DNA from: a virus
IMG/VR virus record: IMGVR_UViG_3300045988_089750
Direction: 5' to 3' (one strand)
DNA length: 50,355 nt
Numbering within the stretch: position 1 is the stretch's first letter; the number at the start of each line of letters is the position of its first letter. This document shows positions 1,940 to 48,896 of this stretch, in pieces. The notes under the pieces are model-generated. The model was not told the origin of the DNA. It saw only the letters and a program-made list of their open reading frames with translations, and made no database searches. The translations under genes and the position numbers were made by a program.

Positions 1940-2311
1940 TTAGTAACCTTCCGTTAATAAATCGTTCTTTACCATAGTTTTGATAGCAATAACCCTGCTA
2001 AGGTGTGCTTTATAGTCCGCTACTGCTTTCGCTTTGCGGTCTTCGTCCGTTTCTATACCCAACTGTGCGGCGTAATAGTCGTTAATCAAAGAAAATTCTT
2101 CGGTTTCGTCTATTTCGCTACGGATAACCGCACGTGTAAGGTTTTCGTAGTCCGGCTTCTGCCAAACCTGTACCGTATCGTAGTTGTAAACGGTCTTTTC
2201 GCCCGTTTCCGGGTCTTCTACCTTTTCTTCCACTATGTTGTAGTTATAGTGGTAAGAACCATTACCCAACGGTAAAATAATCGCGGGTCTAACGTCTGAA
2301 CTTGATTTCAT
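1940..2311 (-). CDS. Hypothetical protein
   Basis: ORF packed between the RT and the holin. No recognisable motif. Confidence 0.5.
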   Translation of the reverse strand: MKSSSDVRPAIILPLGNGSYHYNYNIVEEKVEDPETGEKTVYNYDTVQVWQKPDYENLTRAVIRSEIDETEEFSLINDYYAAQLGIETDEDRKAKAVADYKAHLSRVIAIKTMVKNDLLTEGY

Positions 2312-3323
2312 AAGGTGTAATTTTGTTTAACTTGTTAATTAAATATTCGCTGTCGCTGTATTTAGCCCAACCCCACCACGCGGCTAACGTCTGCTTAAAT
2401 TCATCCTCACTTAACGGTTTCTTCCGTTTCCGTAATTTAGCTATCTTACGGCAAAGGTTCTGTTTGATACGCTTCCTAAGCCGTGTTTCGTTCAAATAGA
2501 ATACATAGCCCAAGAAATCAATACCACGCCCGAAGCTGTCGCGGTGGTCGCGTGCCACCGGAAAGACTTGTTTGTTCTGTTTGATTTCCAGCTTTACGTT
2601 AGCCGCCAAATAGCTTTCAAACTCTGCCAGCAAAGCGTGAAGCGTCTTTTTGTCGCTATGTAATACTACAATGTCGTCGGCGTATCTGAAATAGTACCTT
2701 ACCCGCTTTACTTCCTTTACCCAATGGTCGAAGTAGGTAAGTACAAGATTTGCTAAATATTGGCTAAGGTAGTTGCCAATCGGTAAGCCTTCCGCACTGT
2801 CTATAATTTCGTCCAAAAGGTTGAGTAGCCGTGTGTCCTTAATCTTCCGGCGAACAATGGATTTTAGTACGGTGTGGTCTATGGAAGGGTAAAATTTGCG
2901 TATGTCTATTTTCAAGCAATACGCGCAGCCTGCCTTATCTCTGTCGATAACGTGCCTTAACTTATTTGCCGCCGCTTGTATGCCACGCCCTTTGATGCAG
3001 CTATAAGTGTCCGCCGTGAAAATAGACACCCATATAGGCTCTAAAATGTTCATTACGGCGTGATGTACAATCCGGTCGGGAAAGTATGGCAAACGGAAAA
3101 TCTCGCGTTCTTTAGGCTCGTATATCGTAAAGGTACTATATTCCGAAGTTCTGTAAGTTCCTGCTTTCAGTGCTTCGTGCAAAGACAAAAGGTTGGCTTC
3201 CTTGTTGCGGTCGTGTAACTTTACGCCGTAGGAATGTAGTTTGCCCTTGCGGGCGCGTTCGTCCGCAAGGTGCAAATTATCCAAACTTATTATTTTGTCG
3301 TAAAGGTTGCCTAACCTTTTCAT
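2289..3323 (-). CDS. DGR reverse transcriptase
   Basis: RT motifs are present, including IGNYLSQ (2760..2780; the (I/L)GxxxSQ signature of DGR RTs) and YADD (2673..2684). The gene is adjacent to a TR that has adenine-specific VR mismatches. Confidence 0.93.
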   Translation of the reverse strand: MKRLGNLYDKIISLDNLHLADERARKGKLHSYGVKLHDRNKEANLLSLHEALKAGTYRTSEYSTFTIYEPKEREIFRLPYFPDRIVHHAVMNILEPIWVSIFTADTYSCIKGRGIQAAANKLRHVIDRDKAGCAYCLKIDIRKFYPSIDHTVLKSIVRRKIKDTRLLNLLDEIIDSAEGLPIGNYLSQYLANLVLTYFDHWVKEVKRVRYYFRYADDIVVLHSDKKTLHALLAEFESYLAANVKLEIKQNKQVFPVARDHRDSFGRGIDFLGYVFYLNETRLRKRIKQNLCRKIAKLRKRKKPLSEDEFKQTLAAWWGWAKYSDSEYLINKLNKITPYEIKFRR

Positions 3324-3440
3324 AGTAATTTCTTTGCTGATTAAATGGTGTTCTTCGGTTTCCCTACCAAACCCCGTTAATGGTTAATATTTTCCGCCTT
3401 CCGGCGCGGTCTTTGTCCTTATTAGCTTTACAAAAAAATC

Positions 3441-3553
3441 AGTATAGCTGAGAGCCGATATTCGCATTCGTATTCGTAGCCGTGTTATTCGTATTCGCGT
3501 ACGAAAGCCCGGCATTCGCGCTGTTATTCGCATTACCGCCGAACAAGACACCC
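3441..3553 (-). repeat. DGR template repeat (TR)
   Basis: Non-coding 113-bp segment between the accessory ORF and the RT. In the VR frame it reads GVLFGGNANNSANAGLSYANTNNTATNTNANIGSQLY, which is AAY-rich. It aligns without gaps to VR1, VR2 and VR3, and every mismatch is at a TR adenine. Confidence 0.92.
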
Positions 3554-3580
3554 GAAGGGCAAACAACCGTGAAAATCTTC

Positions 3581-3925
3581 CTACTCAAAATAATAGCGCG
3601 TTCCCGAAGCCCGCATAGTTACCTTTCGCGGGAAGGCGTTACGCTTCTTTATTTCCTGCAAAATGTATTTTATTTCGCTGGAATTTGTGAAGAACTTCTT
3701 TGCTTCGCTTTCGGGGTCGTCCTTCTTGAACTTTATTTTCACGAGGAAACGGTTCGCACCGAATTTCGTTTTCACGTCTTCGATAAAATCAATTAACCAA
3801 AACTGCAAATTGATTAGTTTCTGCTGGGTGGTTTCCGGGCAGTTGAAATGTTTGTTCGCTTCGTCCGGCTGGATGTTCAAGAACGAAAGGCTACCGTCAT
3901 CTGTGCTATTATTGTTTGAAGTCAT
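3581..3925 (-). CDS. Hypothetical protein in the DGR accessory (avd) position
   Basis: 114-aa ORF between the target gene and the TR, where Avd normally sits. I do not recognise an Avd-like four-helix-bundle sequence, so this call rests on position only. Confidence 0.45.
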   Translation of the reverse strand: MTSNNNSTDDGSLSFLNIQPDEANKHFNCPETTQQKLINLQFWLIDFIEDVKTKFGANRFLVKIKFKKDDPESEAKKFFTNSSEIKYILQEIKKRNAFPRKVTMRASGTRYYFE

Positions 3926-3968
3926 TTTCTTGTATTTTTAATTATTAAACATTTCGTTTCGTAACGTA

Positions 3969-5303
3969 TTACGCGGCGGGGATAAAGCAAAGCCGAGAGC
4001 CGAGATGCGCAGACGTAATCGCAGCCGTGTAATTCGCATACGCGCACGAAAGCCCGGCATACGCGCCGTCATTCGCACTACCGCCGAACAAGAAACCCCT
4101 TTGCGCTACGCCACTGGCTGGTATGTTGGTATAGAAGTAGTCGGCAAAGTAGGTAGTAGAACCTGCGCCCACTTCCGTAGGCATATTTTCCCCGTATTCG
4201 CCTATCATCATGCGCTTAACATAACCTTCCTTGCGTGGAAGTTCGCCACGTTTTACGTAATTGTCATAGTTTGTATCTTGGTAGTTCGCCGGGTTATCGC
4301 AAGTATAGAAAGAACTGATGCCGCCGTCCGCGTCTGATTCAATGGCGCATTTGCATCCGTCCGTCCAACTCCAAACATGCCCGAACGGGTTTTCTATTCC
4401 TCGGTATGAAGGTACTTTTACTTTGGTAACTACGCCCGTGTCGTATTCGTCCGGCATGGTGTATTCTACCACACCCGAAGCGTTACCCAATGAATTGGTA
4501 GTACCGCATGGCACAAACGGATAGTAGCTGTTGAAGGTGTTCCACTTTGTACTGTTAAGCGTCGTAACGCCTGCGCCTAACCCGCCTTGCTTGTACCCTT
4601 CGCTCGTAGGTTGCGCGTTAAAATCAAGCTGGCAGTTAAGGTTAGCGTATTCAATCACGTAAAGCCAATAGGTCGCGTTTTGTGCCGCGTATAAATCGCA
4701 GTTCCATCCTGCGCTGTTCAATCCGGCTGCACCTCTGTTACGTGCGTATTTTCGGAAGTTGGTAAGGCTCGTTTGTGTAGCTGGACGACCTAAGAGGGTT
4801 CTATAAGTTCCGTCCCATGCCGTATTATTGTTTCCGCCCCGGAAAGCAGCCGTAGTATTTACCACACTGGCAAGTTTGGGCGTAGCTGATAAAGTTCTGT
4901 CTATCGTGGCTTCGTATGCGCTCCGGTACATCTTCGGCACTTCGATAAAGCCCGGTAGTTGGTATTGTGATATAAGGCAGGTAAACGTAGTACCGTCAAA
5001 TTCAAACTTACGGTAGTGCTTCGGTATTTCTACCATTACCATGCCGGAAGCTCCGGTAAGGTCTGCCGCTGCCCCGGTGTCCGTCTTCGTACTGTCGGTT
5101 TGATGAAGGTAGGTAACAACCTGCCCGGCATCGTTAAGCAAACAACGGCGCATAAGGGATTGAACCGGGAGCGAAACATGTAGTTCCGATCTTCCTACGC
5201 GTTCTAACGCGGTATCTGCCACGTTTATATTAATCTTTACGCCGTAATAGTAATCATAAGGAAACGCGGGCTTTGTGTTGCCCGCTGCAATAATTAAACC
5301 CAT
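3969..5303 (-). CDS. DGR variable (target) protein with C-type-lectin/FGE-like C-terminal domain; probable receptor-binding tail protein
   Basis: The C-terminus contains NPFGHVWSWTDG ... FLFGGSANDGAYAGLSCAYANYTAAITSAHLGSRLCF and carries VR1. The start is placed at ATG 5303 (MGLIIAAG) to avoid a 70-nt overlap with the upstream gene. The ORF track's alternative start is 5384. Confidence 0.85.
   Translation of the reverse strand: MGLIIAAGNTKPAFPYDYYYGVKININVADTALERVGRSELHVSLPVQSLMRRCLLNDAGQVVTYLHQTDSTKTDTGAAADLTGASGMVMVEIPKHYRKFEFDGTTFTCLISQYQLPGFIEVPKMYRSAYEATIDRTLSATPKLASVVNTTAAFRGGNNNTAWDGTYRTLLGRPATQTSLTNFRKYARNRGAAGLNSAGWNCDLYAAQNATYWLYVIEYANLNCQLDFNAQPTSEGYKQGGLGAGVTTLNSTKWNTFNSYYPFVPCGTTNSLGNASGVVEYTMPDEYDTGVVTKVKVPSYRGIENPFGHVWSWTDGCKCAIESDADGGISSFYTCDNPANYQDTNYDNYVKRGELPRKEGYVKRMMIGEYGENMPTEVGAGSTTYFADYFYTNIPASGVAQRGFLFGGSANDGAYAGLSCAYANYTAAITSAHLGSRLCFIPAA
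3986..4098 (-). repeat. DGR variable repeat VR1 (full length)
   Basis: Gap-free alignment to TR at offset +545. There are 17 mismatches, all at TR adenines, plus one non-A mismatch at the distal boundary (TR 3549). Confidence 0.92.
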
Positions 5304-5314
5304 AGTTATAATTT

Positions 5315-5575
5315 TTAATAGCCCCAAATCAGGGCGGTTGCTGAACTCGTTTCTTTTATCTCTCTGATAATTTCGGGGTTCCATCCCGTTTCAAAGCGCG
5401 TGCTTATAAATTCGCCTTCGGGCATTCCCCAAAGGTTTACTTCCAATACTATCGCCGCTTCGCCATCGTTTTTTATGCAAAAAGGCGTGTCCATTCGGAA
5501 GTTGCCACCGGAAAAATCCACGTTCCCGGCTACCGAAATTTGCGCGCTCACTAAATCGCCGTTTCTATTTTCCAT
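5315..5575 (-). CDS. Hypothetical protein
   Basis: 86-aa ORF between the tail fibre gene and the DGR target. No motif recognised. Confidence 0.5.
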   Translation of the reverse strand: MENRNGDLVSAQISVAGNVDFSGGNFRMDTPFCIKNDGEAAIVLEVNLWGMPEGEFISTRFETGWNPEIIREIKETSSATALIWGY

Positions 5576-24077: not shown

Positions 24078-24096
24078 GGGGTAATAAGCCCCTTAG
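24074..24096. terminator. Bidirectional hairpin between convergent genes
   Basis: Stem CTAAGGGG (24074..24081) / CCCCTTAG (24089..24096). It overlaps both stop codons. Confidence 0.5.
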
Positions 24097-26360
24097 TTCA
24101 TATATCCGTTTTGCTTTAGCCAATTTTCAAGCGTTGCCCGTCCGCAGCAACAGCTTTTTAAGATGTTGTTTAAGTCTGATTTGCTAACCTTCTTACCGTC
24201 TAAACGTTTTAACCCACCATCTAACAAACCTTGTTTCAATCCGGTTAATTGGTCGGAATAAACTTCGTTATATAGATTCCTTTTTACCGTAGCTAATACT
24301 TTATTAGCGTCAAGCCCGAAGTTACTTATAACCCAATCGTAATTATTAACCATTGTATTATATCCGGTAGAATTACGGTTGGTAATAAATTCGGGATAAG
24401 GTGTTTTGGGACATCCTAATTTCTTGTAAAACTCCGGTAGGGTCTTACGTGATACAAATTCGTTTGCCAATTCCATATAACGCCGTTGCGTATCGGTAAG
24501 GTACATATTTCCCGGTTTGTTCCTATTATGTGTAATCTCATGCCAAAATGTAGCCATAGCGTCTGCTTCTCCTTTTGTTATGTCTGCCGAATGCCTTGTA
24601 GCTATCTTGGCTAATGCAGATTTTACCCCGGCTAATCTATCCGGCGTTAATGATAAACGCCCGTCCATGTATGTAAAGCCATTTACGCCCGTTCTTTTCG
24701 TTGGGGACAGTCTTAAATCTCCGTTTTCAAACCATTTTTCGGTAAGCTCCTTGTTTATCTTTGCAAAGGTTTCATCTACTTGTGCATCCGATGTATAGGC
24801 GGTTCTTAATGCCGGATGCGGGTTATCTCCGCCTTTGGCTGCTTCCGCTTTAGCCTTCTGTAAATCTGTCTTAGCTTTGGATAATGCTTGTTGTAGCTTT
24901 GGGATGCAATCGCCGTAATAGTTAGAAGTATGTATTTCGTTGGCGTTCATAATACTTGTGTACTCTTTTTGCAGGTCAGCAAAGCCTTTCATGTCTTTTT
25001 CTATAAAGTCCCGTAGGTCGCTTATCGCCATAAGCCATTCCCGTTTTCGTTGAAGTAGTACGTTATCTACTTTGTCTATTTCCCCGGTCAGTGCGGTTCT
25101 GTTACCGGAATTGCGTAAAGTGTCTAAAGCTGAAACATCCAAACCGAAGGAATACGCCCAACGCTTGTAATAAGCTATATCGCTGTCAAACTCCGTACAT
25201 GGTTCTACGGTATTCATTGCTTTACTTGCTATCCCAGTTTTCAACCCGCCGCTAATCTTTCCGCCGTTGAAGTTATCGCGAATATAATAAGGCATAGATT
25301 TCCAGCCCTTCGCACGTTCTTCAATGCTACTGATGTAATCCCGAAAGGCTTTAGGTACGTCCTTAACTGTCCGTCGTGAAGGAAGGCTTTTATACTGTGC
25401 GCCCTTAACAATCGCTTTTAGCCTATTAGCCCGGTTCTTGTTGTATTCGTCGTAATCCGCCATGATGGGAACGGCGAAACAGCGGCATTGTGGATGCCAC
25501 CCTACAAATTTGAATGTTTTCGGGTAATCCCCTGCCAACGTGTCGCAAATATCCACGAACGGAACAGGTTCGCCTTTTGAGTTCTTTATAGTGTGGTTGT
25601 TGCTAAGCATTACGCGAATGCCTACAACAAAATCAAGCTGTTGCCATCGTAAGTATTCGCTTTCCCGGTACGCCATGTTTATTTCGGTGCGTGTCAATCG
25701 CTGGGCGTTCTTTGCTGAAGAACGGTAAACACCTTGTCCGGGGTGGTACATCTTTGCCGCCTTACTTAGTCGCAGGTTGCCACCTTTATCGCGTACTCGC
25801 CTATAAAGTCGGTCGGGTTCATTCAAGTATTGTCGCAAATCACGGCTTAATTGCTGTGCGCTTTTTCCTTCCCCTAATCCTACGTCTATGCCCAATTCCA
25901 TAGCGTCTTTTAATTCTTCGGCATACTTCCAAACCCTTTGGCTAAGGTTCAAACCGTTTTCTTTACGTTTCTGAAATGCACTAAGGGCTTCAAGGTTACG
26001 CGCTTGGTAACGTTCGGCTTCTTCTTTGGTTAGTTTGGAAGTCCGAAGTATGGAAGCTAAAAAAGCGTCGTTCTTCTGACATGCTGCCAGCCATTCGGAG
26101 CGTTGCCCGGAAGTAACTACGGCTTCAATCTTTCCGGCAAGTCGGGTAACAATGCCGCGCGCCTGCTTCTTGGCTTTCGGGAAGTCGTCAAAGTTAAACG
26201 TTCCACCAGCCGGAAGGTTAATCTTTCCCGCAAGGCTGGCAAATTCATCCGCCGCCGTTTGGTATAGCTTGGCTACTTGCTTTGCGTAGCGTTCGGTTCT
26301 TGTGTAGTGTTTCGCGTCAAATCCACGAAGCTGTATTATAAGCTGGTTTTCTTTTGCCAT
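24093..26360 (-). CDS. Head morphogenesis protein (SPP1 gp7 / Mu F family) with long C-terminal extension carrying an HExxH motif
   Basis: The MuF-like core ends with ...FKFVGWHPQCRCFAVPI near aa 300. About 450 further residues follow, including WHEITHNRN (HEITH = 24528..24542). Confidence 0.8.
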   Translation of the reverse strand: MAKENQLIIQLRGFDAKHYTRTERYAKQVAKLYQTAADEFASLAGKINLPAGGTFNFDDFPKAKKQARGIVTRLAGKIEAVVTSGQRSEWLAACQKNDAFLASILRTSKLTKEEAERYQARNLEALSAFQKRKENGLNLSQRVWKYAEELKDAMELGIDVGLGEGKSAQQLSRDLRQYLNEPDRLYRRVRDKGGNLRLSKAAKMYHPGQGVYRSSAKNAQRLTRTEINMAYRESEYLRWQQLDFVVGIRVMLSNNHTIKNSKGEPVPFVDICDTLAGDYPKTFKFVGWHPQCRCFAVPIMADYDEYNKNRANRLKAIVKGAQYKSLPSRRTVKDVPKAFRDYISSIEERAKGWKSMPYYIRDNFNGGKISGGLKTGIASKAMNTVEPCTEFDSDIAYYKRWAYSFGLDVSALDTLRNSGNRTALTGEIDKVDNVLLQRKREWLMAISDLRDFIEKDMKGFADLQKEYTSIMNANEIHTSNYYGDCIPKLQQALSKAKTDLQKAKAEAAKGGDNPHPALRTAYTSDAQVDETFAKINKELTEKWFENGDLRLSPTKRTGVNGFTYMDGRLSLTPDRLAGVKSALAKIATRHSADITKGEADAMATFWHEITHNRNKPGNMYLTDTQRRYMELANEFVSRKTLPEFYKKLGCPKTPYPEFITNRNSTGYNTMVNNYDWVISNFGLDANKVLATVKRNLYNEVYSDQLTGLKQGLLDGGLKRLDGKKVSKSDLNNILKSCCCGRATLENWLKQNGYMN

Positions 26361-30006: not shown

Positions 30007-31563
30007 TTATTGTGGTAATTCGTCGCTTATATGAAGTTCCCCGAAATCTTCTTTAATGTTTTTCGGGTCGCCTTTGTAGAATACTAATACATCATCATGC
30101 AGGTTGCTATTTTCCCGGCTCTTGTTGAATATTTCCAATGCTTTTTTAACCTGCAATTCTTCAAAACTATCTATTGTTTCTTCTACGCTGCCTTTACAGA
30201 AGACTAACACGTTTTGATGAACCTTTCCTACCTTGCGCGTACCGTTAAACTGCCGCCGCACCCTTATTGCAAGGCTGGTTATTTGGTTTACAAGGATAAG
30301 GGAATTGTAATAATGAAGACCGCACCCTGTAAACGCTTCTATTGTGTGGCTTACAAAGTTTCTGTAAATGCCCTTCTTATCCCGTATATCCCCGACGACA
30401 AAAACCGCGAAACGGTTATTCTTCAACCGGGAGCAGGATTGTTTTATAATACGTTTGTACGTTTCAATGAATTGCGCATAGTCCATGTTTGAAATATCGC
30501 GCGGATCATTGCTATATACTTCCAAATCCGCGTAGGGTGGGCAGGAGAAAATCATATCGAAATCGCCACTTATCCCATTCGTGCTAAGAACGTCTTCAAG
30601 CTGGGAACTATCGCCTACCGTCCATTGGGGAAAGAATGGGTAGCTTATGCCTAACACTTCTTCCGCGTTTGCTTTGTTGGCTTTAATTTGGGCTTCGCTT
30701 AAATCATTGCCGACGTAAGGCATGTTCAACTTTGCCGCTACTATACCGCGAACGCTGCCCCCAGCGAACGGGTCTAATATCCGCCCGCCTTCAATGTTGA
30801 ACCAACGGTAAGAAAGTTCGGTTAATACCGGGTCGAATATGCTTGTAGTAGTCATTGTTTTAAGCCCTAAACGCTCCATTTCCGCTATCACTTCTTCCGT
30901 CTGTGGTTCTCTGCCTAAAGTTTCGCGTAATGCGTTCTTGGTATCGTAAAATATTGGCGGTTGCGCTGTCTTTGCAAAAGTCAAATCTTCGCTTCTACCT
31001 TTGTCGCTTTTTATGCCTATTTCCAGCCATGCCCGGCGGCGTTCCTGCCATTCGGCGGTACGGGTATTCAATACAGAAAACGGCGGCAAAATAAAGTCGT
31101 CTTTAAGGCGTTTAAGTTGTTTTTCCGGATTTTCATCCCCTTCGCTGTCTTCCCCAAAATCTACCGGAACGCCCCATGCTTCGTTATCTATACCGAAGTC
31201 TTCTTTTGCCTTAGCTATGGCTTCTTCGTCCCAATCAAGATTAGCGGCGGCTGTCGCGTTGTCTGCTAACGCAAGTTCGCGCCCTTCCTTTGTATCTAAG
31301 TCTATATCGTTGCGCTTTACGGCTACAAGTTCGTTTCCGGTTGTTTCGACTATAATAACATCTTCCATGCCTGCACTTGCAAAGCCTTCGGTAGTCTTGT
31401 TTCCGGCTATAATCTTGTTGTTTTTGTCGAGCAGGATTGAACGCCCCGCGCCGAATGTGCGCAGGCTTTTTTCTATCATGCTTTGTCCGAACTGCGTACC
31501 TTTGTTGAAATTCAAGTCGTCCGGTATAAGGTCTTCTATTTTTGTCTTTTTAATCTTTGCCAT
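30007..31563 (-). CDS. ParB-like nuclease domain / DNA methyltransferase fusion
   Basis: N-terminal ParB-type region (IEDLIPDDLNFNKG ... AGNKTTEG). The C-terminal methyltransferase has motif I (ILDPFAGGSVRG) and motif IV (SCPPY). Confidence 0.8.
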   Translation of the reverse strand: MAKIKKTKIEDLIPDDLNFNKGTQFGQSMIEKSLRTFGAGRSILLDKNNKIIAGNKTTEGFASAGMEDVIIVETTGNELVAVKRNDIDLDTKEGRELALADNATAAANLDWDEEAIAKAKEDFGIDNEAWGVPVDFGEDSEGDENPEKQLKRLKDDFILPPFSVLNTRTAEWQERRRAWLEIGIKSDKGRSEDLTFAKTAQPPIFYDTKNALRETLGREPQTEEVIAEMERLGLKTMTTTSIFDPVLTELSYRWFNIEGGRILDPFAGGSVRGIVAAKLNMPYVGNDLSEAQIKANKANAEEVLGISYPFFPQWTVGDSSQLEDVLSTNGISGDFDMIFSCPPYADLEVYSNDPRDISNMDYAQFIETYKRIIKQSCSRLKNNRFAVFVVGDIRDKKGIYRNFVSHTIEAFTGCGLHYYNSLILVNQITSLAIRVRRQFNGTRKVGKVHQNVLVFCKGSVEETIDSFEELQVKKALEIFNKSRENSNLHDDVLVFYKGDPKNIKEDFGELHISDELPQ

Positions 31564-39112: not shown

Positions 39113-39381
39113 AGCTTATCCGCGTTAAAGTCTTTTGACGGTTTGAAAACAACAACCTTGCGGGCTGGAACTAATATGGTTTCGCCCGTATTTATGTTCC
39201 GGGCTGGTTTCGCCTTGCGTTGCTTCGTTTGAAAAGTACCGAAGCCGCGAATAGTTACCGTATCGCCGCCCGTCACTTCGTCCCGAATAACATCAAATGT
39301 ACGTTCTAATACTTCCTTTACTTGATAGCTGTTTAATCCGGTCTGTTCCGCTACCGAGTTCACTAATTCCTGTTTTGTCAT
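39109..39381 (-). CDS. HU/IHF-family DNA-binding protein
   Basis: MTKQELVNSVAEQTGL...VTIRGFGTFQTKQRKAKPARNINTGETILVPARKVVVFKPSK is the classic HU-fold pattern. Confidence 0.9.
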   Translation of the reverse strand: MTKQELVNSVAEQTGLNSYQVKEVLERTFDVIRDEVTGGDTVTIRGFGTFQTKQRKAKPARNINTGETILVPARKVVVFKPSKDFNADKL

Positions 39382-39926
39382 AGCTTCTCAATTAAAATTT
39401 GTTCGTATAAGTCTGTAAATTGGTTGCCCGCATACCGTGCCAAACGTGAAGCGTAGAAGCAAAGCCGAGAGCCGAGATGCGCATACGAATCCGAAGCCGC
39501 GTCACTCGTACCCGCGCACGAAAGCCCGGCAGAACCTTTGCCTTTCGCGTTTTCTTGTATATAGAAGTAAGGGTAGTATTTGTATTGGTCGGTATTGTTC
39601 CAATCCGGTTTCCAGCCTTCGTTAAGTGCTGCGGTAATAGTTTCCAATTTGCGGCGTGCTATTTCGTCCGATCTGAAGCCTTGCGCCTTCGCATTTTGTT
39701 CGTTTATCGGTTCTACGCCTAATACCTTACATGCGTCTTCGTAGGTCTTTACCCGGTCGGTTATTTCCTCGTAGTCTTCTTCCTTGTAGAAGTAATCGAA
39801 AATACTACCGTTCCCTTCGTCTTCGGTAAGTTTCTTTACGGTGTCTTGCGCTTCTTCTACGTTGTCGTATCTGCCTTGTAAATTCTCGTTCCCGTTCTCT
39901 TTTCTGTATAAACAAATCTTTTTCAT
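39378..39926 (-). CDS. Remote DGR target candidate 2 (small early-region protein with embedded VR2)
   Basis: 182 aa with no signal peptide. It contains GSAGLSCAGTSDAASDSYAHLGSRLCF, encoded by VR2, and is a paralog of 41946..42683. Confidence 0.8.
   Translation of the reverse strand: MKKICLYRKENGNENLQGRYDNVEEAQDTVKKLTEDEGNGSIFDYFYKEEDYEEITDRVKTYEDACKVLGVEPINEQNAKAQGFRSDEIARRKLETITAALNEGWKPDWNNTDQYKYYPYFYIQENAKGKGSAGLSCAGTSDAASDSYAHLGSRLCFYASRLARYAGNQFTDLYEQILIEKL
39458..39533 (-). repeat. DGR variable repeat VR2 (remote, truncated)
   Basis: Gap-free alignment to TR 3441..3514 at offset +36017. There are 15 mismatches, all at TR adenines. Homology ends just past the A-free block CGAAAGCCCGGCA. 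Confidence 0.85.
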
Positions 39927-40351: not shown

Positions 40352-41104
40352 TTAAAAAGGTGTTTTGTTGAAACTAATCCGTAGTCCGGGTTTTGCGACG
40401 TGTACCGTTTTTCCGGTGGCTTTTGCTATTCCGTCCCGGAAGGCTACCGCGTCGCCGTTCCCTTCGCTTATATGTATCAATACTATGTTATTAACCCGTG
40501 TTAGGTCGTTAGCCTTCAACGCGTCCAAACAAGTATAGTAGCTTAAATGGCTTCTCCGTACTCGTTCTTTCAATACTTCCGGTATATAACCTTCTGTTAC
40601 ATTGCGTTCCAATATGTCCGGGTCGTAGTTGCATTCAATTAATATATTGTTCAACCCGGCAAATGTGCAAGGCAAATAGAAAGTATCGGTAGCAAACAAT
40701 ACGCCGCCCGTTTCTTCATGCCAGACGTAGAAGCCCAACGGTTCGCGGCTGTCGTGCTTCGTGGGAAAGGGAATGATAGTAAAACCGCCCAACCGTAAAT
40801 GCTGGTAACTTCCGTTTTCCATCCTTATGTGGGTCGGTCGCCAGCAAGAATTAATCTTAGCGGCTTCTATCGTGCCTTTGGAAGCGTAAACCGGAACAAC
40901 GTAGTTTAAAACCTCATTAATACGCCCGGCATGGTCGCCATGTTCATGGGTAATGAGGCAGCCTACTATTTTCTTTACGTTGTTGCCCAACGCTGCTAAT
41001 ACCTTCTTGAATGGTATTCCAGCTTCAAGTAGAAGGGCTTCGCCCGCGTTTTGCAAAACGTAGGCGTTACCCTCTGAACTTGAACCTAATACGGTTAATT
41101 CCAT
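40352..41104 (-). CDS. MBL-fold metallo-hydrolase
   Basis: HxHxDH motif (ITHEHGDHAG) in the typical N-terminal context. Confidence 0.8.
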   Translation of the reverse strand: MELTVLGSSSEGNAYVLQNAGEALLLEAGIPFKKVLAALGNNVKKIVGCLITHEHGDHAGRINEVLNYVVPVYASKGTIEAAKINSCWRPTHIRMENGSYQHLRLGGFTIIPFPTKHDSREPLGFYVWHEETGGVLFATDTFYLPCTFAGLNNILIECNYDPDILERNVTEGYIPEVLKERVRRSHLSYYTCLDALKANDLTRVNNIVLIHISEGNGDAVAFRDGIAKATGKTVHVAKPGLRISFNKTPF

Positions 41105-41945: not shown

Positions 41946-42683
41946 TTAATTGTTGTTCATTATGTCCTTTAAAAAGTCGTCTATTCCGCCGCCTTTAATC
42001 ATCTTTTCAAAAGCTATTTCGCGGGTTGCTCGTTCTACTATCGGCGCGGACTGCTTTCCGGTAAGAAGTTCTTTCAAGCCCTTTATTATGGCTCCATAAT
42101 TTCCGCAAAAACCTACCATTACTCCGGTACTTCCTTCGCCATTTTTATCCTTTGTATCAGTGTCGCAACCTACTACGATAAGACCGCGTGAACTGCTTCC
42201 GTTACAGAATGGTACTAAATGCTTTTGCATTACTTCTGTGGTGGTCTTCAAAAAGTCGCTTTGGGGTTCTTCTTGGCTGCTTTCCGCTTGTTGTGTTTCT
42301 CCGTTTCCCGAAGCAAAGCAATAATAGTCACGGTACAAGTCCGCAAAGTGTTCGGCTGCGTATTTCGCGAGCGCGGACGTGGGAAAGCAAAGCCGAGAGC
42401 CGAAATGCGCATGCGTACCCGTAGCCGCGTAAGACGTATTCGCGCACGAAAGCCCGGCATTTACATAGCGGAATAGCGGGTAATACTTCCATTCGTTTTT
42501 GTCGTCCCAATTCGGTTTCCAGCCGTTATTAAGCGCACGGGTTATTACTGTCAGCTTGTGGTAGGCTAACATACTTCTTTGGTCTTCCTTCGGGAAAATG
42601 TTAAATACTTCTTCGTTAATCGGTTGAATGTTCAAAACTCTACAAGCGTCCTCGTAAGACACGATTTTCTTTTCTGTATTCAT
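41946..42683 (-). CDS. Remote DGR target candidate 3 (early-region protein with embedded VR3)
   Basis: 245 aa with no signal peptide. It contains NAGLSCANTSYAATGTHAHFGSRLCF, encoded by VR3. Its N-terminal half is paralogous to 39378..39926. Confidence 0.8.
   Translation of the reverse strand: MNTEKKIVSYEDACRVLNIQPINEEVFNIFPKEDQRSMLAYHKLTVITRALNNGWKPNWDDKNEWKYYPLFRYVNAGLSCANTSYAATGTHAHFGSRLCFPTSALAKYAAEHFADLYRDYYCFASGNGETQQAESSQEEPQSDFLKTTTEVMQKHLVPFCNGSSSRGLIVVGCDTDTKDKNGEGSTGVMVGFCGNYGAIIKGLKELLTGKQSAPIVERATREIAFEKMIKGGGIDDFLKDIMNNN
42386..42461 (-). repeat. DGR variable repeat VR3 (remote, truncated)
   Basis: Gap-free alignment to TR 3441..3516 at offset +38945. There are 13 mismatches, all at TR adenines. 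Confidence 0.85.
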
Positions 42684-42717: not shown

Positions 42718-44769
42718 TTATTCTACTTTGAAGTCATCGGTAGTTACTACCAACTTTACAAGCTGGCTAACAACCGGGATAAACTTGTTAATACTTTCTG
42801 CGTTATCCACGAAAATAGGCGCACTAACGTTATGGAACGTGCAAAGGGTATTTATTATGTCAAGCCCGGCATTAACTTTCCCGGCTTGGTTCTTATCCGC
42901 GTATTTTACCCCGTCAATAAGGCAAATGCAATCCGGTTCTTTTTCGCCGTTTACAAGCGTCTTGTACATCTTGAACTGAACCCGGCTAAACAATCCGTTT
43001 ACGCGGCGTTCCACTTCCGTCATACGGGCTTTTATCAAGTCGGCTATTACTATTTCGCAGCCTTGTATTTCGGCGCGTTCCTGCGCCAGTTTTGCGGCTT
43101 CCCCGTTTAGTTCAGCTATGCGCTTTTCGTTGGCTTCTATAATTGCGCGAAGGTTTAGCTTACGTTTTACTTCATCAAGCCGGGCAGTAAGGTTGGCTTT
43201 CCGTTGGCGTATCTCTGTTCTGTTTGCCGTGTCTTCCGCGTTGAAGATTGGAAGTTGTTCGGAAAGTTCCTTTATTTCTTTTTCAAGCGCGACCCATTCC
43301 GGCAGGTCTTCTCCGTTAATATCCGGTTCGGTATTTACGCGGGGATTGTCGTTCAAAACCTTTTGCAACGCTTCACGATCTTCTTTCGCCTTTGTTACGG
43401 CGGTAGTATGGCTGGTTTCCAATTCGGCTAACGCTTTATCTATCCGGCTGGCTTCTTCTTCCTGCGATGCTATCATTTCGTTTAACCGCTGACCGTCCGT
43501 GTTAATTTTGTTAAGGCGTTCTTCCCGGTCTGCGTAGAATTTTTCGCGGGCGGCTTCCCGGTCGGTGTTGTACTTAGCTAATGCTACCGGGTCGGCGCAA
43601 GCGTGCTTGAACAACGGGCAAACAAGGCTTTCCGTAGCGGTAAATTCTTCGGCGTTTACTTTGTACCATCTTTTGCGTAGTTCGTTCTGCATTTGCTTGT
43701 AGCCTTCTATCGTGCTTTGCGTCCGTTTCTTCTCGTTCGTCAAACGGTCGTATTCGCTACGGTAACGGCTGGCTTCGCTGCGTTCGTCGTTTATAACCTG
43801 CTGTAACTTGCGGTCGGCATTATTGTAGGTTTCGTTCTTTTTGAACGCTTCGTTCCTTGCCGTTTCCTTTGCCTTAAATACTAAAGCGTGCTGGCTGCTA
43901 CGTTTGTCATTTATGGCGGTTTGTACCTTAGCGGCAGCTTCATAGGCGATACGGTTGGCTTCCGCTGCTGATGCGGCGGCTTCGTCTATGTCGTTCAATT
44001 CTTTTGTAAGCTGTTCCTTCTCGGTATTAAGGGCGGCATAATCCGGTGTCAGCGGGGTAGCGCGCGTTATTTCGTCAATACGTGTAGGTATCTTTTCCAG
44101 TTCCTTCGTTATCTTCTCCTTTTGCGCTGAAATCTCGCGTTTATAGTCTTCTACGGTTTTCCCGCTAAGCTGTTCTATCAAAGTGGCAAAGGCTGTATTG
44201 CCCTTCGCTATGTCTTCGTAGCTTACTCCCCCGGCAATCTGCAAAAGCATTTCACGTTGTGCCGTCCAATGAAGGGAAAGGAAATAGTAGGGGTTGGTAA
44301 TCATCTTGAAAACGGCTTCGGGTATAATCGCGTTTATACGTTCGTCGTATTCGCTTTTTGTTTTTAATGGGACTCCGTTATAGAAGTAGTCGGTATGGTG
44401 TCCCTTTAACTTCCTTTCCGTCTTTCCCTTCTCTGTTTTCCATTCTTCAACCAATACGCGGCGAAGTTCTACGGTTTCAACGCTTCCCGTTTCGGTATCT
44501 ATTATTTCTAACGTTCCGGCTACTTCGTGTTCAAGGTCGGGAATAAAATTGCCTTCCGCGTCGTTGGTCTTAATTCCGAATTTGCTATCTACATTCCCTT
44601 CGCTGTCTTTGCCCCAAAGAAGCCATGTAAAAGCGTCCATAATGGTAGTTTTTCCCGTACCGTTCCGTCCGCTGATGGTTGTAACTGTGTCGTTAAAGTC
44701 TATAACGACGTTACGCAAGCCTTTGAAATTAGCAAGGCTTAAACGTTTGATGATTGCTTTTTTGCTCAT
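42718..44769 (-). CDS. SMC/SbcC/RecF-like AAA ATPase with long coiled coil
   Basis: N-terminal Walker A (ISGRNGTGKTTIMDA), about 450 aa of coiled coil, and a C-terminal Walker B-like PIFVDNAESI. The start is set at ATG 44769 (MSKKAII), directly after the upstream stop. Confidence 0.8.
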   Translation of the reverse strand: MSKKAIIKRLSLANFKGLRNVVIDFNDTVTTISGRNGTGKTTIMDAFTWLLWGKDSEGNVDSKFGIKTNDAEGNFIPDLEHEVAGTLEIIDTETGSVETVELRRVLVEEWKTEKGKTERKLKGHHTDYFYNGVPLKTKSEYDERINAIIPEAVFKMITNPYYFLSLHWTAQREMLLQIAGGVSYEDIAKGNTAFATLIEQLSGKTVEDYKREISAQKEKITKELEKIPTRIDEITRATPLTPDYAALNTEKEQLTKELNDIDEAAASAAEANRIAYEAAAKVQTAINDKRSSQHALVFKAKETARNEAFKKNETYNNADRKLQQVINDERSEASRYRSEYDRLTNEKKRTQSTIEGYKQMQNELRKRWYKVNAEEFTATESLVCPLFKHACADPVALAKYNTDREAAREKFYADREERLNKINTDGQRLNEMIASQEEEASRIDKALAELETSHTTAVTKAKEDREALQKVLNDNPRVNTEPDINGEDLPEWVALEKEIKELSEQLPIFNAEDTANRTEIRQRKANLTARLDEVKRKLNLRAIIEANEKRIAELNGEAAKLAQERAEIQGCEIVIADLIKARMTEVERRVNGLFSRVQFKMYKTLVNGEKEPDCICLIDGVKYADKNQAGKVNAGLDIINTLCTFHNVSAPIFVDNAESINKFIPVVSQLVKLVVTTDDFKVE

Positions 44770-44770
44770 A

Positions 44771-45451
44771 TTACTGATATTTTTGAAGTGAATAAAATCC
44801 CGCGTCAAGACTTACGGTTATTTTCTCTAATTTCTTCTTTTGGGCTGCATAGGAGCGCGCTATGCTGTTCATGTAGCCCGTAAGGTTTACTATGTAGGTG
44901 CGCTTCTCTATGATGCAGTTTAGGGCTACGTCTAAGACGGCTTCCCAAACTTCCCGTACGCGTTCCGGCTGTACCGCTATTCTGTGCCGGATGATGTATT
45001 CCGTAACTTTTGCTTTACGGCTTTCAATCTCGGTTATTACCATTGAAAAATCCCCCGTTCGGTATGCCTGCAACACAATCGCGCAAAATTGGATGGCATT
45101 CAAATATTCTTCTTGTATGTTGGAAACGCTTTTTTTCTTTCTCAAACGTTCCCTAATCCGTTCTTGGAATGTATTACGGTCTATTAGTTCTATCTGCCCG
45201 CTGGCTGTTTCAACTATACAGTATTTTCGGCTAATCTCGCGCGGGTCTATGTTCTTTTCCGCCGAATAGAGGAAACGTTTAAGGCTTCCGGTGTATTTTT
45301 CCCCGTTATCCGCCTTTAATATCAATGCGTTATTGCATGGTTTCAATATACGCGGTTCTACTCCCCGGCAGTAGCTTCGTATCTGCCTGCTTTCCCTATT
45401 TATTTCGTATTTAGAAAAGCCGGGAATGTTAATCCAAATATTATTAATCAT
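44771..45451 (-). CDS. NUMOD4-motif DNA-binding protein
   Basis: The N-terminal WINIPGFSKYEINRESRQIRS resembles the NUMOD4 motif. The rest is unassigned. Confidence 0.45.
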   Translation of the reverse strand: MINNIWINIPGFSKYEINRESRQIRSYCRGVEPRILKPCNNALILKADNGEKYTGSLKRFLYSAEKNIDPREISRKYCIVETASGQIELIDRNTFQERIRERLRKKKSVSNIQEEYLNAIQFCAIVLQAYRTGDFSMVITEIESRKAKVTEYIIRHRIAVQPERVREVWEAVLDVALNCIIEKRTYIVNLTGYMNSIARSYAAQKKKLEKITVSLDAGFYSLQKYQ

Positions 45452-48609: not shown

Positions 48610-48896
48610 CTAAACCTTCGCCTATAAGCGATGGGATAAACCGTCGTTTCTTTGAAGCTATTGAAGCGATTGTTAGTTTGGGTAAGGTTAGCGCGTTGGA
48701 GGCGTTTTGCACGCTTTACGATTTGAGTGCGCCACGTTATAGGGAAATGCGGCTTACTTATGGTGTTTCTCCGAAGCCCGGCTACCAATCACGCTACAAG
48801 AATATAGAAGTAGAAGCGATTTATTCGCTGGTCGTTAATTATCCTATTTCCTCACGCTGGCTTATAACCGGGCGCGGTAAAATGCTTATCGAATAA
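48594..48896 (+). CDS. HTH-like DNA-binding protein adjacent to integrase (possible excision/regulatory factor)
   Basis: INRRFFEAIEAI...SRWLITGRGKM resembles the same repressor-like family. Its stop overlaps the integrase ATG (TAATG). Confidence 0.5.
   Translation: MPRTIAKPSPISDGINRRFFEAIEAIVSLGKVSALEAFCTLYDLSAPRYREMRLTYGVSPKPGYQSRYKNIEVEAIYSLVVNYPISSRWLITGRGKMLIE

What the first reader, a model, noticed from the sequence alone, without database searches (positions are those of the whole stretch)
2289..5303. Complete diversity-generating retroelement (target, accessory ORF, TR, RT) at the distal end of the tail module
ORF 2289..3323(-) carries RT motifs, including IGNYLSQ (2760..2780) and YADD (2673..2684); the (I/L)GxxxSQ motif is characteristic of DGR RTs. 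The 113-bp TR (3441..3553) aligns gap-free with the 3' end of ORF 3969..5303 (VR1, 3986..4098). There are 17 mismatches, and every one is at a TR adenine (printed as T on the plus strand). About 30 adenines are available. In the VR frame the TR is AAY-codon rich (NANNSAN...NTNNTATNTNAN). The target C-terminus (NPFGHVWSWTDG ... GLSCA...GSRLCF) looks like the C-type-lectin/FGE-type fold used by DGR variable proteins. The gene follows the tail fibre genes, so it probably acts in tropism switching.
Basis: partly seen in the sequence, partly recalled or inferred. Interest (0 to 1): 0.65.

Follow-up and report, generated by a model that had tools for sequence, protein, structure and literature searches.

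The report
Active three-target phage retroelement without Avd
This Bacteroides prophage carries a working diversity-generating retroelement that rewrites a tail protein and also two small early-region proteins about 36-39 kb away, and in place of the usual helper protein Avd it has an uncharacterised small basic protein that in other phages is fused to the reverse transcriptase.

Summary
On the minus strand lie the target (5303..3969, VR1 4098..3986), a 114-aa ORF, TR (3553..3441), a 117-nt spacer and the RT (3323..2289). TR and VR1 differ at 18 positions, not 17: 17 are TR adenines, and one is G>T at 4094.

The RT's best solved relative is the Bordetella phage DGR RT (E 1.6e-42, against 9e-19 for group II). 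It keeps the IGxxxSQ motif.

The element is active. Six near-identical phages share the TR, but VR1 varies at 25 columns, 24 of them TR adenines.

- **More targets.** The TR also matches VR2 (39458..39531) and VR3 (42386..42461) in two paralogous small early-region proteins. All mismatches there are at adenines, and both vary in populations.
- **Not Avd.** The accessory ORF is basic and beta-rich, with OB-like order of elements. It is syntenic wherever the 80 related contigs reach that far, and is fused to the RT C-terminus in Hankyphage and other RTs.
- **Primer element.** Spacer AAUCAGCAAAG pairs imperfectly with the TR end and perfectly with the CTTTGCT end of all three VRs. This matches the known BPP-1 primer/IMH relation.

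The C-type lectin fold of the target could not be shown.

The parts
3969..5303 (-). Main target gene (444 aa), a tail-module variable protein
   Evidence: phrog_5302 'tail protein', E 5e-132. Homologous to the DGR targets of crAss-like phages, e.g. cr55_1 at 47% identity and LMMB tail-collar fibre at 27%. Lies immediately upstream of the accessory gene in every one of the 80 related contigs that extends that far.
3986..4098 (-). VR1, 113 nt, encoding target residues 402-440
   Evidence: Gap-free match to the TR. 18 mismatches, 17 at TR adenines. Varies at 25 columns among six near-identical phages, 24 of them TR-A positions.
3986..3992 (-). IMH core CTTTGCT at the 3' end of VR1
   Evidence: Identical in VR1, VR2 and VR3, and in the VRs of all related loci examined. 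The TR reads CTATACT here. Perfect complement of spacer AGCAAAG.
3581..3925 (-). Accessory gene ACC (114 aa, pI 9.2), not Avd
   Evidence: No Pfam or NCBIfam family; phrog_19665 of unknown function. 657 homologues in the protein database and at least 525 IMG/VR loci. Always between target and TR. Homologous to the C-terminal ~108 aa of the Hankyphage RT. AF2 pLDDT 86, with element order b1-b2-b3-alpha-b4-b5.
3441..3553 (-). Template repeat (TR), 30 adenines
   Evidence: Identical in five of six near-identical phages, with one SNP in the sixth, while the VRs differ. Starts about 25-33 nt after the ACC stop in most related loci.
3437..3447 (-). IMH* plus 4 nt (CTATACTGATT), the template side of the proposed template:primer duplex
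   Evidence: Pairs with spacer AATCAGCAAAG at 9 of 11 positions; both mismatches are at TR adenines. The GATT part covaries with the spacer in other loci: CTTTTC/GAAAAG, TTTTCA/TGAAAA, CTGG/CCAG.
3324..3440 (-). Spacer between TR and RT (117 nt), the proposed structured 3' part of the DGR RNA
   Evidence: Blocks conserved across 25 diverse loci.
3395..3406 (-). Spacer hairpin CGCC-GGAA-GGCG followed by an A-run
   Evidence: RNAalifold consensus helix. Compensatory C-G<->U-A in 12 versus 12 sequences and G-C<->A-U in 2.
3347..3375 (-). Spacer stem / internal loop / hairpin core (GGGG-UUUGGUA-GG-GAAA-CC-GAAG-AACACC)
   Evidence: The UU(G/A)GUA and GAA(G/C) loop strands are near-invariant. The inner stem's second pair is G-C in 21, C-G in 1, A-U in 1 and G-U in 2 of 26 unique sequences. 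The outer stem varies GGG/CCC, GGC/GCC, AGGGG/TCCCT. Covariation is modest.
3332..3342 (-). Proposed primer element AAUCAGCAAAG
   Evidence: AGCAAA(G/C) occurs in all related spacers that could be parsed. Its reverse complement CTTTGCT equals the VR IMH. This is the same relation as BPP-1 Sp47-56 versus VR118-127 (PMC5703328).
2289..3323 (-). DGR reverse transcriptase (344 aa)
   Evidence: RVT_1, E 1e-19. phrog_1423, E 2e-127. Best PDB hit is 8ub7_A, the Bordetella phage bRT, at E 1.6e-42 against 9e-19 for group II GsI-IIC. R73, I182 and Q188 align with bRT R74, I181 and Q187; YADD aligns with YMDD.
1940..2311 (-). DS ORF (123 aa, pI 4.65), overlapping the RT 3' end by 23 nt; possible second accessory gene or simply a neighbour
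   Evidence: Present directly after the RT in all related loci that extend that far, at 29-100% identity. phrog_11557 of unknown function. Not detectably related to the Hankyphage ORF in the same position.
39378..39926 (-). Remote target gene 2 (182 aa, phrog_11581, no signal peptide evident)
   Evidence: 120 database proteins at 93-96% identity differ almost only at 12 residues (137-151), which are the TR codons with A at position 1 or 2.
39458..39531 (-). VR2, 74 nt, matching TR positions 40-113
   Evidence: 15 mismatches, all at TR adenines, P 3e-11. Among 8 near-identical phages there are 19 variable columns in a 79-nt stretch spanning VR2 against 4 in the other 470 nt.
41946..42683 (-). 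Remote target gene 3 (245 aa), a paralogue of gene 2 with the VR at residues 75-100
   Evidence: phrog_11581; alignment A6.
42386..42461 (-). VR3, 76 nt, matching TR positions 38-113
   Evidence: 13 mismatches, all at TR adenines, P 7e-9. 19 variable columns among 9 near-identical phages, all at TR-A positions. In a diverged phage both remote VRs carry that phage's own non-A TR changes.

Best explanation
This is an active diversity-generating retroelement of a temperate Bacteroides phage, with one template and three targets.

Shown:
- An RT of the DGR type.
- A TR that stays invariant among near-identical phages.
- Three VRs whose differences from the TR, and whose variation among near-identical phages, fall almost only on TR adenines. 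The VRs lie in a tail protein (VR1, full 113 nt) and in two paralogous small early-region proteins (VR2 and VR3, the 3' 74-76 nt of the TR).

Inferred by analogy with Bordetella phage BPP-1:
- A transcript runs from the end of the accessory gene through the TR and the 117-nt spacer, and folds.
- Spacer AAUCAGCAAAG pairs with the TR 3' end (CUAUACUGAUU) and primes cDNA synthesis.
- The RT copies the TR and misincorporates opposite adenines.
- The RNA-cDNA hybrid homes to any site that offers two things. One is the IMH CTTTGCT, perfectly complementary to the primer RNA; the TR has two mismatches there and so is not a target. The other is an upstream A-free homology block: TCTTGTTCGGCGGT for VR1, TGCCGGGCTTTCGT for VR2 and VR3.

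Also inferred: the 114-aa basic protein encoded where avd normally sits is the RT's nucleic-acid-binding cofactor. It would replace Avd in function but is unrelated to it in fold.

Outcome: diversification of a distal tail protein, presumably receptor binding, and of two non-virion proteins whose ligands are unknown.
For: **RT type.** The best solved relative is 8ub7_A at E 1.6e-42, against 9e-19 for group II RTs and 1e-15 for retron-type RTs. The chain numbering of 8ub7_A (D138, I181, Q187, D215, D216) matches bRT as described in bioRxiv 10.1101/2023.10.23.563531. The RT has IGNYLSQ where group II has GGPLSP. It scores below the cut-offs of all NCBIfam group II, retron and DRT models. Its closest phage RTs are DGR RTs of crAss-like phages at 45-57% identity.

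**A-specific pattern.** Across 76 related loci there are 1207 A mismatches against 25 at T, C or G, although the scan was biased towards A.

**Activity.** VR1. VR2 and VR3. 120 protein variants of gene 2. TR and remote VRs co-evolve in a diverged phage.

**Primer and IMH.**. The same relation was computed for BPP-1, and was proposed in PMC5703328 to direct homing.

**Accessory protein.**
- Synteny holds wherever the 80 related contigs extend far enough, and in a Leadbetterella prophage.
- In many loci it is more conserved than the RT, for example 71% against 52%.
- BLASTP against the Hankyphage RT C-terminus gives E 1e-12.
- Five RVT_1 proteins of 430-583 aa carry the domain at their C-terminus.
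- The best BFVD structural matches are viral RT proteins, at E 1e-6 to 2e-4 and TMq 0.59-0.68.
- Its pI is 9.2, or 9.8 for the folded part. Avd proteins average 9.5 according to PMC5758913.
Against: - No experiment or read data from this phage itself were available. Activity is inferred from differences between assembled relatives.
- The priming site is not mapped. The primer duplex is short (11 nt with 2 mismatches). In one clade the spacer reads AGCAAAC while the IMH stays CTTTGCT.
- No GC-rich hairpin follows any of the three VRs; z-scores are -0.25, -0.08 and -1.26.
- The cofactor role of the accessory protein rests on synteny, fusion and charge only. Its model has no significant PDB match (best E 0.27), so 'OB-like' rests on the order of elements and on weak hits.
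- crAss LMMB-type relatives are reported to work with no accessory gene at all (PMC7290462).
- The lectin fold of the targets is unproven.
Confidence: 0.85

Rival explanations
1. The DGR is real, but the 114-aa ORF is just a conserved phage gene, for example a tail-assembly or structural accessory of the target, that happens to lie between the target and the TR. It would play no part in retrohoming, so the element would be accessory-free like crAss LMMB.
For: LMMB-type DGRs, whose RT is 45% identical to this one, are reported as TG-VR-TR-RT without any accessory gene. Wu et al. note ORFs nested between DGR parts that are not accessory genes. No nucleic-acid-binding domain was detected by sequence.
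Against: The same domain is covalently fused to the C-terminus of RTs in Hankyphage and in at least five other RT clusters. The best structural matches are RT proteins. A tail chaperone would not be expected to fuse to an RT. It is basic like Avd, and it is often more conserved than the RT or the target.
Confidence: 0.2
2. The two remote TR-like segments are not DGR targets. They would be relics of recombination between paralogous lectin-like modules, and their A-biased differences would be inherited rather than ongoing.
For: They share only the 3' 74-76 nt of the TR. They lie about 36-39 kb from the RT. They sit inside the proteins rather than at the C-terminus. Profile comparison finds nothing in common with the main target beyond the 29-aa VR segment.
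Against: Among near-identical phages variation is concentrated in these segments and at TR-A columns: 17 of 19 and 19 of 19. 120 protein variants differ almost only at the 12 A-templated residues, with up to 16 amino acids per site. In a diverged phage both remote VRs carry that phage's own non-A TR substitutions. All three VRs share the IMH.
Confidence: 0.03
3. The RT belongs to another retroelement (group II intron, retron or defence RT), and the repeat pair is coincidental.
For: NCBIfam's best match is the group II model (E 9e-38), and PADLOC lists DRT and UG models. Neither library appears to hold a DGR-specific model.
Against: All those scores are far below the curated cut-offs, for example 130 against 300 bits. 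The solved DGR RT scores much better than group II or retron RTs. The RT has the SQ motif, not SP. No Rfam intron or retron RNA is present in the window. The A-specific TR/VR pattern has P of about 1e-11.
Confidence: 0.01

Closest known systems
Bordetella phage BPP-1 DGR (mtd-avd-TR-brt)
   Same: - Gene order is the same: tail genes, target with a 3' VR, a small basic accessory gene, TR, spacer, RT, small ORFs, lysis genes, at the genome end.
- The RTs are homologous, and residues R74, I181 and Q187 are conserved.
- VRs differ from the TR at adenines, mostly in AAY codons.
- The spacer segment pairs imperfectly with the TR 3' end and perfectly with the VR IMH.
   Different: - The accessory protein is not Avd: no PF05635 hit, a beta-rich model instead of a helical barrel, and no phmmer hit with BPP-1 Avd.
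- No GC-rich hairpin follows the VR.
- The target is not Mtd-like by sequence.
- There are three targets instead of one, two of them outside the structural module.
- The host is Bacteroides.
Hankyphage (Bacteroides phage p00) DGR
   Same: - The host genus is the same, and the phage is temperate.
- The DGR lies next to the tail-fibre gene.
- No true Avd is present; the ORF labelled Avd there hits DUF4376, not the Avd family.
- It carries the ACC domain.
   Different: - In Hankyphage the domain is the C-terminal ~108 aa of a 434-aa RT; here it is a separate gene upstream of the TR.
- The RTs are only distantly similar; Hankyphage is not among the 30 best RT matches.
- Only one VR is annotated in Hankyphage.
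- There is no DNA similarity.
crAss-like phage DGRs (LMMB, cr55_1, cr115_1; Wu et al. 'lineage 3', avd-less, CLec3-type VR)
   Same: They have the closest RTs (45-57% identity) and homologous targets (27-47%) in GenBank phages. They have no avd.
   Different: - LMMB is described with no accessory gene between VR and TR.
- Here a conserved ORF sits there.
- The cr55_1 RT has a C-terminal extension that did not align with ACC.
- The phage type differs: a roughly 50-kb temperate siphovirus-like phage against a roughly 100-kb crAss-like phage.
Quimbyvirus DGR (Benler et al. 2021, PMC8008677)
   Same: One TR serves a structural target next to the tail genes and a second, distal, apparently non-structural target. 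The host is Bacteroides. Activity was inferred in the same way, from near-identical genomes.
   Different: - That phage has a 75-kb genome, an RT split over three frames and one remote target on the opposite strand.
- Here the RT is intact, and there are two paralogous remote targets on the same strand. They bracket a four-gene block that includes an Apyc1-like hydrolase and lies next to an SMC-like ATPase.
- Relatedness of the two systems was not tested.

Membership tests
Diversity-generating retroelement | RT of the DGR clade, with the motif-4 (I/L/V)GxxxSQ signature | tested here: met
   Best PDB hit is bRT (8ub7_A) at E 1.6e-42, against 9e-19 for group II. IGNYLSQ aligns with bRT IGSLTSQ and with GsI-IIC GGPLSP. 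R73, I182 and Q188 correspond to bRT R74, I181 and Q187. No formal phylogeny was made.
Diversity-generating retroelement | TR/VR repeat pair whose mismatches are at TR adenines, with the VR inside an ORF | tested here: met
   VR1 17 of 18, VR2 15 of 15, VR3 13 of 13 mismatches at A. P values 3e-11, 3e-11 and 7e-9.
Diversity-generating retroelement | Ongoing A-restricted hypervariation of the VR with an invariant TR | tested here: met
   Compared across assembled near-identical phages and database proteins, not reads.
Diversity-generating retroelement | IMH at the VR 3' end, differing from IMH* at the TR 3' end | tested here: met
   CTTTGCT in all VRs against CTATACT in the TR. These positions did not vary among the near-identical phage VRs compared.
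Diversity-generating retroelement | Spacer RNA segment that can pair with the TR 3' end (cis-priming) and pairs better with the IMH | tested here: met
   By sequence only: 9 of 11 pairs with the TR and 7 of 7 with the IMH. Partial covariation of the flanking 4-6 nt. The BPP-1 control gave 10 of 10 against 7 of 10. The priming site itself cannot be tested here.
Diversity-generating retroelement | GC-rich inverted repeat just downstream of the VR (BPP-1 type; not universal) | tested here: not met
   DNA folds of the 65 nt after each VR are no better than shuffles: z -0.25, -0.08, -1.26.
Diversity-generating retroelement | Variable protein with a C-type lectin (or Ig) fold displaying the VR | tested here: inconclusive
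   No Pfam hit, including the 17 homologues scanned. No PDB sequence hit with a single sequence or a profile. AF2 pLDDT 63 overall and below 50 over residues 405-444. Foldseek best E 0.85. The only support is homology to LMMB-type targets, which Wu et al. class as CLec3.
Avd (accessory variability determinant, PF05635-like helical barrel) | Sequence membership and an all-helical bundle fold | tested here: not met
   No Pfam or NCBIfam hit. The model is five strands and one helix at pLDDT 86. BPP-1 Avd finds nothing in the six-frame ORFs of the window, E above 1.
Avd (accessory variability determinant, PF05635-like helical barrel) | Small basic protein encoded between target and TR that binds the RT and nucleic acid | tested here: inconclusive
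   Position, size (114 aa) and pI (9.2) match. RT association is inferred from fusions. Binding cannot be tested here.
Group II intron RT/maturase | Score above the TIGR04416 cut-off and an intron RNA | tested here: not met
   130 bits against a cut-off of 300. No Rfam match in the window.
Retron / defence RTs (DRT, UG) | Score above the family cut-off; msr/msd RNA | tested here: not met
   All NCBIfam retron and Drt scores are far below their cut-offs. No Rfam match.
Wu et al. 2018 DGR 'lineage 3' (avd-less, Bacteroides and relatives) | Placement in the RT tree | not tested
   Suggested only by 45% identity to the LMMB RT, which its authors placed in lineage 3. The reference RT set was not available.

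The most novel reading that the evidence does not exclude
The 114-aa protein defines an undescribed class of DGR accessory factor. It would be an OB-like, basic RT cofactor that replaces Avd in a large avd-less DGR lineage, either free-standing as here or fused to the RT as in Hankyphage. The same element uses a short internal homology block plus a shared IMH to diversify intracellular early proteins that sit around an anti-defence-like gene block. That would make DGR-driven variation part of the phage's intracellular conflict with its host, not only of receptor binding.
Probability: 0.4. Interest if true: 0.75.

Novelty: new variant of a known kind. Interest (0 to 1): 0.55.

Why it matters
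DGRs are well known, and a phage DGR next to the tail genes is ordinary. Two features here are less so.

**An uncharacterised accessory protein.** About a quarter of DGRs lack Avd, and how they work is an open question (Wu et al.). This window offers a concrete candidate for the missing factor. The protein family is very widespread, with 657 homologues and at least 525 viral loci. It is strictly syntenic with the TR and RT, and in other phages it is fused to the RT. No paper in the searchable library describes it. Because relatives are integrated in cultivable Bacteroides thetaiotaomicron, deletion and complementation tests are feasible.

**Targets outside the virion.** One template demonstrably rewrites two non-virion paralogues as well as a tail protein. 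Only Quimbyvirus offers a comparable precedent. The conserved primer/IMH complementarity in a lineage this far from BPP-1 supports the idea that the RNA primer selects the target. It also shows how a phage can add targets: it copies a 7-nt IMH plus one A-free homology block. This is of practical interest for engineered DGR mutagenesis.

Tried and rejected
- **Close relatives in GenBank phages.** Megablast of the cassette found nothing.
- **Known RNA families.** Rfam found nothing in the whole window.
- **Lectin fold of the target.** Nothing came from Pfam on the target or on 17 homologues, from PDB sequence search with a single sequence or a profile, or from Foldseek. AF2 with a 48-sequence alignment gave pLDDT 63. 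The lectin claim therefore stays open. The model is too poor to count as evidence against it.
- **Accessory protein versus the PDB.** No significant match. Only scattered OB folds appeared (SSB, PriB, Teb1) at E 0.4-3. 'OB fold' is therefore offered as a description of topology, not as a membership claim.
- **DS ORF (1940..2311) as a counterpart of the acidic ORF after the Hankyphage RT.** No similarity by BLASTP or hhalign, and no DUF4376 hit in 15 homologues. Rejected. Its role is unknown.
- **cr55_1 RT C-terminal extension as an ACC homologue.** It did not align.
- **Hairpin or cruciform after the VRs.** Not supported.
- **RNAalifold on the spacer.** It recovered only one 4-bp helix. The larger stem-loop was read by eye and checked with a crude regex count, so it is only suggestive.
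- **The primer/IMH complementarity as a new finding.** I briefly took it for new. It was already noted for BPP-1 by Naorem et al. 2017.
- **Defence models.** PADLOC found nothing for gene 2, gene 3, ACC or DS.
- **gene 2 family versus the PDB.** The profile gave no hit.

Full report
**1. What is in the sequence**

All parts lie on the minus strand:
- a 444-aa ORF, 5303..3969;
- a 114-aa ORF, 3925..3581;
- a non-coding repeat copy, 3553..3441;
- a 117-nt spacer;
- a 344-aa ORF, 3323..2289.

The repeat 3441..3553 / 3986..4098 is the strongest direct repeat in the first 12 kb and aligns without gaps.

The mismatch count needs one correction. There are 18 mismatches, of which 17 are at TR adenines. 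One is G>T at 3549/4094. Five near-identical phages have G at that site, so it is an ordinary point mutation in this copy. The TR has 30 adenines, 29 of them at codon position 1 or 2 of the VR frame, and 10 of its 37 codons are AAY. The chance of at least 17 of 18 mismatches falling on A is 3e-11.

**2. The RT is a DGR RT**

Pfam sees only RVT_1. The best match among solved structures is 8ub7_A at E 1.6e-42 over residues 2-329. Group II RTs reach 9e-19 to 6e-17 and retron-type RTs about 1e-15. The chain numbering of 8ub7_A (D138, I181, Q187, D215, D216, R74) coincides with the residues named for the Bordetella phage bRT in bioRxiv 10.1101/2023.10.23.563531, so this chain is bRT.

The window's RT keeps the counterparts of these residues: R73, I182, Q188 and YADD. 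It has SQ where group II RTs have SP. Group II, retron and Drt models of NCBIfam all score far below their cut-offs. Rfam finds no intron or retron RNA. The nearest phage RTs are those of crAss-like phages, at 45-57% identity. One of these, LMMB, was placed by its authors in the avd-less 'lineage 3' of Wu et al.. I did not build a phylogeny.

**3. The element is active**

I used the nearest available substitute, independent assemblies of near-identical phages. Six genomes with 100% identical accessory protein were compared: the window, L006, L008, L009, L010 and L012. They share the same TR, apart from one SNP in L010. VR1 differs at 25 columns, 24 of which are TR-adenine columns.

Across 76 related loci the TR/VR pairs are about 113 nt long, with 1207 mismatches at A and 25 at T, C or G. 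The scan penalised non-A mismatches, so it favours this outcome. Even so, alignments of about 113 nt with few or no non-A mismatches in most of these loci are not expected by chance.

**4. Two more targets**

Sliding the TR over the whole window while ignoring A positions found two further copies on the same strand:
- 39458..39531, matching TR positions 40-113;
- 42386..42461, matching TR positions 38-113.

They carry 15 and 13 mismatches, all at TR adenines. They lie in two paralogous small ORFs: 39378..39926 (182 aa) and 41946..42683 (245 aa). Both belong to phrog_11581 of unknown function, with no Pfam, PDB or PADLOC match.

Both copies are live targets.
- Among near-identical phages, gene 2 has 19 variable columns in a 79-nt stretch spanning the VR against 4 in the other 470 nt. 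Gene 3 has 19 in the corresponding stretch, all at TR-A columns.
- 120 database proteins that are 93-96% identical to gene 2 differ almost only at 12 residues (137-151). These are exactly the TR codons with A at position 1 or 2, and they show up to 16 amino acids per site. Mean entropy elsewhere is 0.02 bit.
- In a diverged phage (contig ..._093846) the TR has its own non-A substitutions, and both remote VRs carry the same substitutions. The VRs are therefore being overwritten from their own TR.

Profile comparison shows that these proteins share only the 29-aa VR-encoded segment with the tail target.

The two genes bracket a block of four genes: one of 275 aa, a metallo-beta-lactamase with a sub-threshold match to anti-Pycsar Apyc1, one of 131 aa, and gene 2 itself. 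Gene 3 lies directly downstream of an SMC/LmuB-like ATPase. No signal peptide is evident by eye.

Non-adjacent targets inside prophages are known (Wu et al.). A structural plus a non-structural target was described for Quimbyvirus (PMC8008677).

**5. IMH, primer and how targets are chosen**

The last three TR-A mismatches of VR1 are the same in all three VRs. The VRs read CGGCTTTGCT where the TR reads CAGCTATACT. Among the near-identical relatives compared, only one of these positions varied, in a single VR3 copy. The first of the three is the second base of the invariant Arg codon in GSRLCF. One relative does vary there, so that position is probably mutable but under selection. The other two define IMH (CTTTGCT) against IMH* (CTATACT).

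The spacer contains an element, AAUCAGCAAAG (3342..3332), whose core AGCAAA(G/C) is present in every related spacer that could be parsed. Its reverse complement is CTTTGCT-GATT.
- It pairs with the TR end and the next four bases (CUAUACU-GAUU) at 9 of 11 positions. Both mismatches are at TR adenines.
- It pairs perfectly with the IMH of every VR.
- The four to six bases that pair beyond the TR covary in other clades: CTTTTC/GAAAAG, TTTTCA/TGAAAA, CTGG/CCAG.

I computed the same relation for BPP-1. Sp47-56 pairs 10 of 10 with VR118-127 and 7 of 10 with the TR. This is not new. Naorem et al. 2017 pointed it out and proposed that the cDNA-linked RNA primer selects the IMH (PMC5703328). Finding it in an avd-less Bacteroides lineage is an independent test that this element works like BPP-1.

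The TR also has two A-free blocks, TCTTGTTCGGCGGT and TGCCGGGCTTTCGT. VR1 homology starts at the first and VR2/VR3 homology at the second. This fits the known rule that the 5' boundary is set by homology.

Other spacer features:
- A hairpin (3406..3395) has clear compensatory changes.
- A stem / internal loop / hairpin (3375..3347) has near-invariant loop strands and modest covariation.
- No hairpin follows the VRs.

**6. The accessory ORF is not Avd**

It has no Pfam, NCBIfam or PDB sequence match, and its PHROG family has no function. BPP-1 Avd finds nothing in the window.

The family is large and tightly conserved. There are 657 database proteins and at least 525 IMG/VR loci, and the best 120 hits are 70-100% identical. 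The order target-ACC-TR-RT-DS is kept in every one of the 80 fetched loci whose contig extends far enough. It is also kept in a Leadbetterella prophage. ACC is often more conserved than the RT.

Fusion evidence is the most informative.
- The only GenBank phage hits are to the last ~108 residues of the 434-aa Hankyphage RT. Pairwise BLASTP gives E 1e-12.
- A profile search of 1.8 billion representatives finds 198 clusters. Most are free-standing proteins of 100-130 aa. Five proteins of 430-583 aa carry the domain at their C-terminus, and all five have RVT_1 upstream of it.

The AF2 model has pLDDT 86. It shows a poorly ordered but highly conserved N-terminal 30 residues, followed by strand-strand-strand-helix-strand-strand. 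That is the order of elements in an OB fold. It has no significant PDB match. Its best BFVD matches are viral RT proteins, at E 1e-6 to 2e-4 and TMq 0.59-0.68, followed by phage ssDNA-binding proteins at E about 1e-2. The protein is basic: pI 9.2 overall and 9.8 for the folded part.

I infer that it is an RT-associated nucleic-acid-binding cofactor, analogous to Avd but not homologous to it. I found no description of it in the searchable literature. The ORF labelled Avd in recent Hankyphage records hits DUF4376, not Avd.

**7. The target and what could not be shown**

The main target is a tail-module protein (phrog_5302). It is homologous to the DGR targets of crAss-like phages, including the LMMB tail-collar fibre. 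The model is poor exactly over the VR. Tropism switching is therefore a reasonable inference for VR1 only.

**8. Context**

The window is almost a whole temperate siphovirus-like prophage. It runs from lysis genes at the left, through the DGR, tail, tape measure, head, portal and terminase genes, then the replication/recombination genes, to an integrase at 48896..50203. A 95%-identical variant of gene 2 (P0138) lies in a Bacteroides thetaiotaomicron chromosome, within the same gene order from the integrase to the terminase. The overall layout of the DGR between tail and lysis genes mirrors BPP-1.

**9. Verdict**

It is a new variant of a known kind rather than a new kind. Its mechanism matches BPP-1 wherever it could be tested. 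It differs in using an uncharacterised RT-associated protein instead of Avd, and in serving three targets, two of which are non-virion paralogues.

Noticed in passing
window 39378..39926 and 41946..42683 (VR2 39458..39531, VR3 42386..42461): Two further, shorter VRs of the same TR lie in paralogous small early-region proteins (phrog_11581). Both are hypervariable at TR-adenine positions in related phages.
   Followed up: yes
window 1940..2311 (-): An acidic 123-aa ORF overlaps the RT stop by 23 nt. It is present directly after the RT in all related loci that extend that far. It has no family assignment and is not related to the ORF at the same position in Hankyphage. It may be a second accessory gene or just the first gene of the lysis region.
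   Followed up: partly
L003 3327..3812 (Hankyphage jmh43_hp; BK010646 40044..40529): The ORF annotated 'Avd' in recent Hankyphage records matches Pfam DUF4376 (E 1e-6), not the Avd family. It is 161 aa and acidic (pI 5.0). In size and charge this fits the 'CH1' accessory class of Wu et al. rather than Avd.
   Followed up: partly
window 40352..41104 (-): A metallo-beta-lactamase-fold hydrolase has a sub-threshold match to the anti-Pycsar Apyc1 family (25 bits, cut-off 50). It lies between the two hypervariable small genes, which hints at a counter-defence neighbourhood.
   Followed up: no
window 4094 (VR1) versus 3549 (TR): This is the single non-adenine TR/VR difference (G>T, Val>Phe at residue 404). 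It is unique to this copy among six near-identical phages.
   Followed up: yes
window 24093..26360 (-): A 755-aa head-morphogenesis protein also matches a PHROG annotated as Bxa ADP-ribosyltransferase (E 2.5e-82). It may be a virion-delivered effector domain.
   Followed up: no
window 5315..5575 (-): An 86-aa acidic ORF (phrog_26422, E 9e-44) lies directly upstream of the target gene. Its function is unknown. The alternative 5384 start of the target would overlap it.
   Followed up: no
window 30007..31563 (-) and 42718..44808 (-): The first is a ParB-like nuclease fused to a DNA methyltransferase. The second is an SMC/SbcC-like ATPase that also matches the Lamassu LmuB and PtuA models of PADLOC. 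Both lie in the non-structural half of the prophage.
   Followed up: no
P0381 (229 aa) and P0397 (257 aa), from the representative search: In these two proteins the ACC-like domain is N-terminal and is followed by part of an RVT_1 domain. They are either fusions in the opposite order or gene calls that read through a degraded TR.
   Followed up: no
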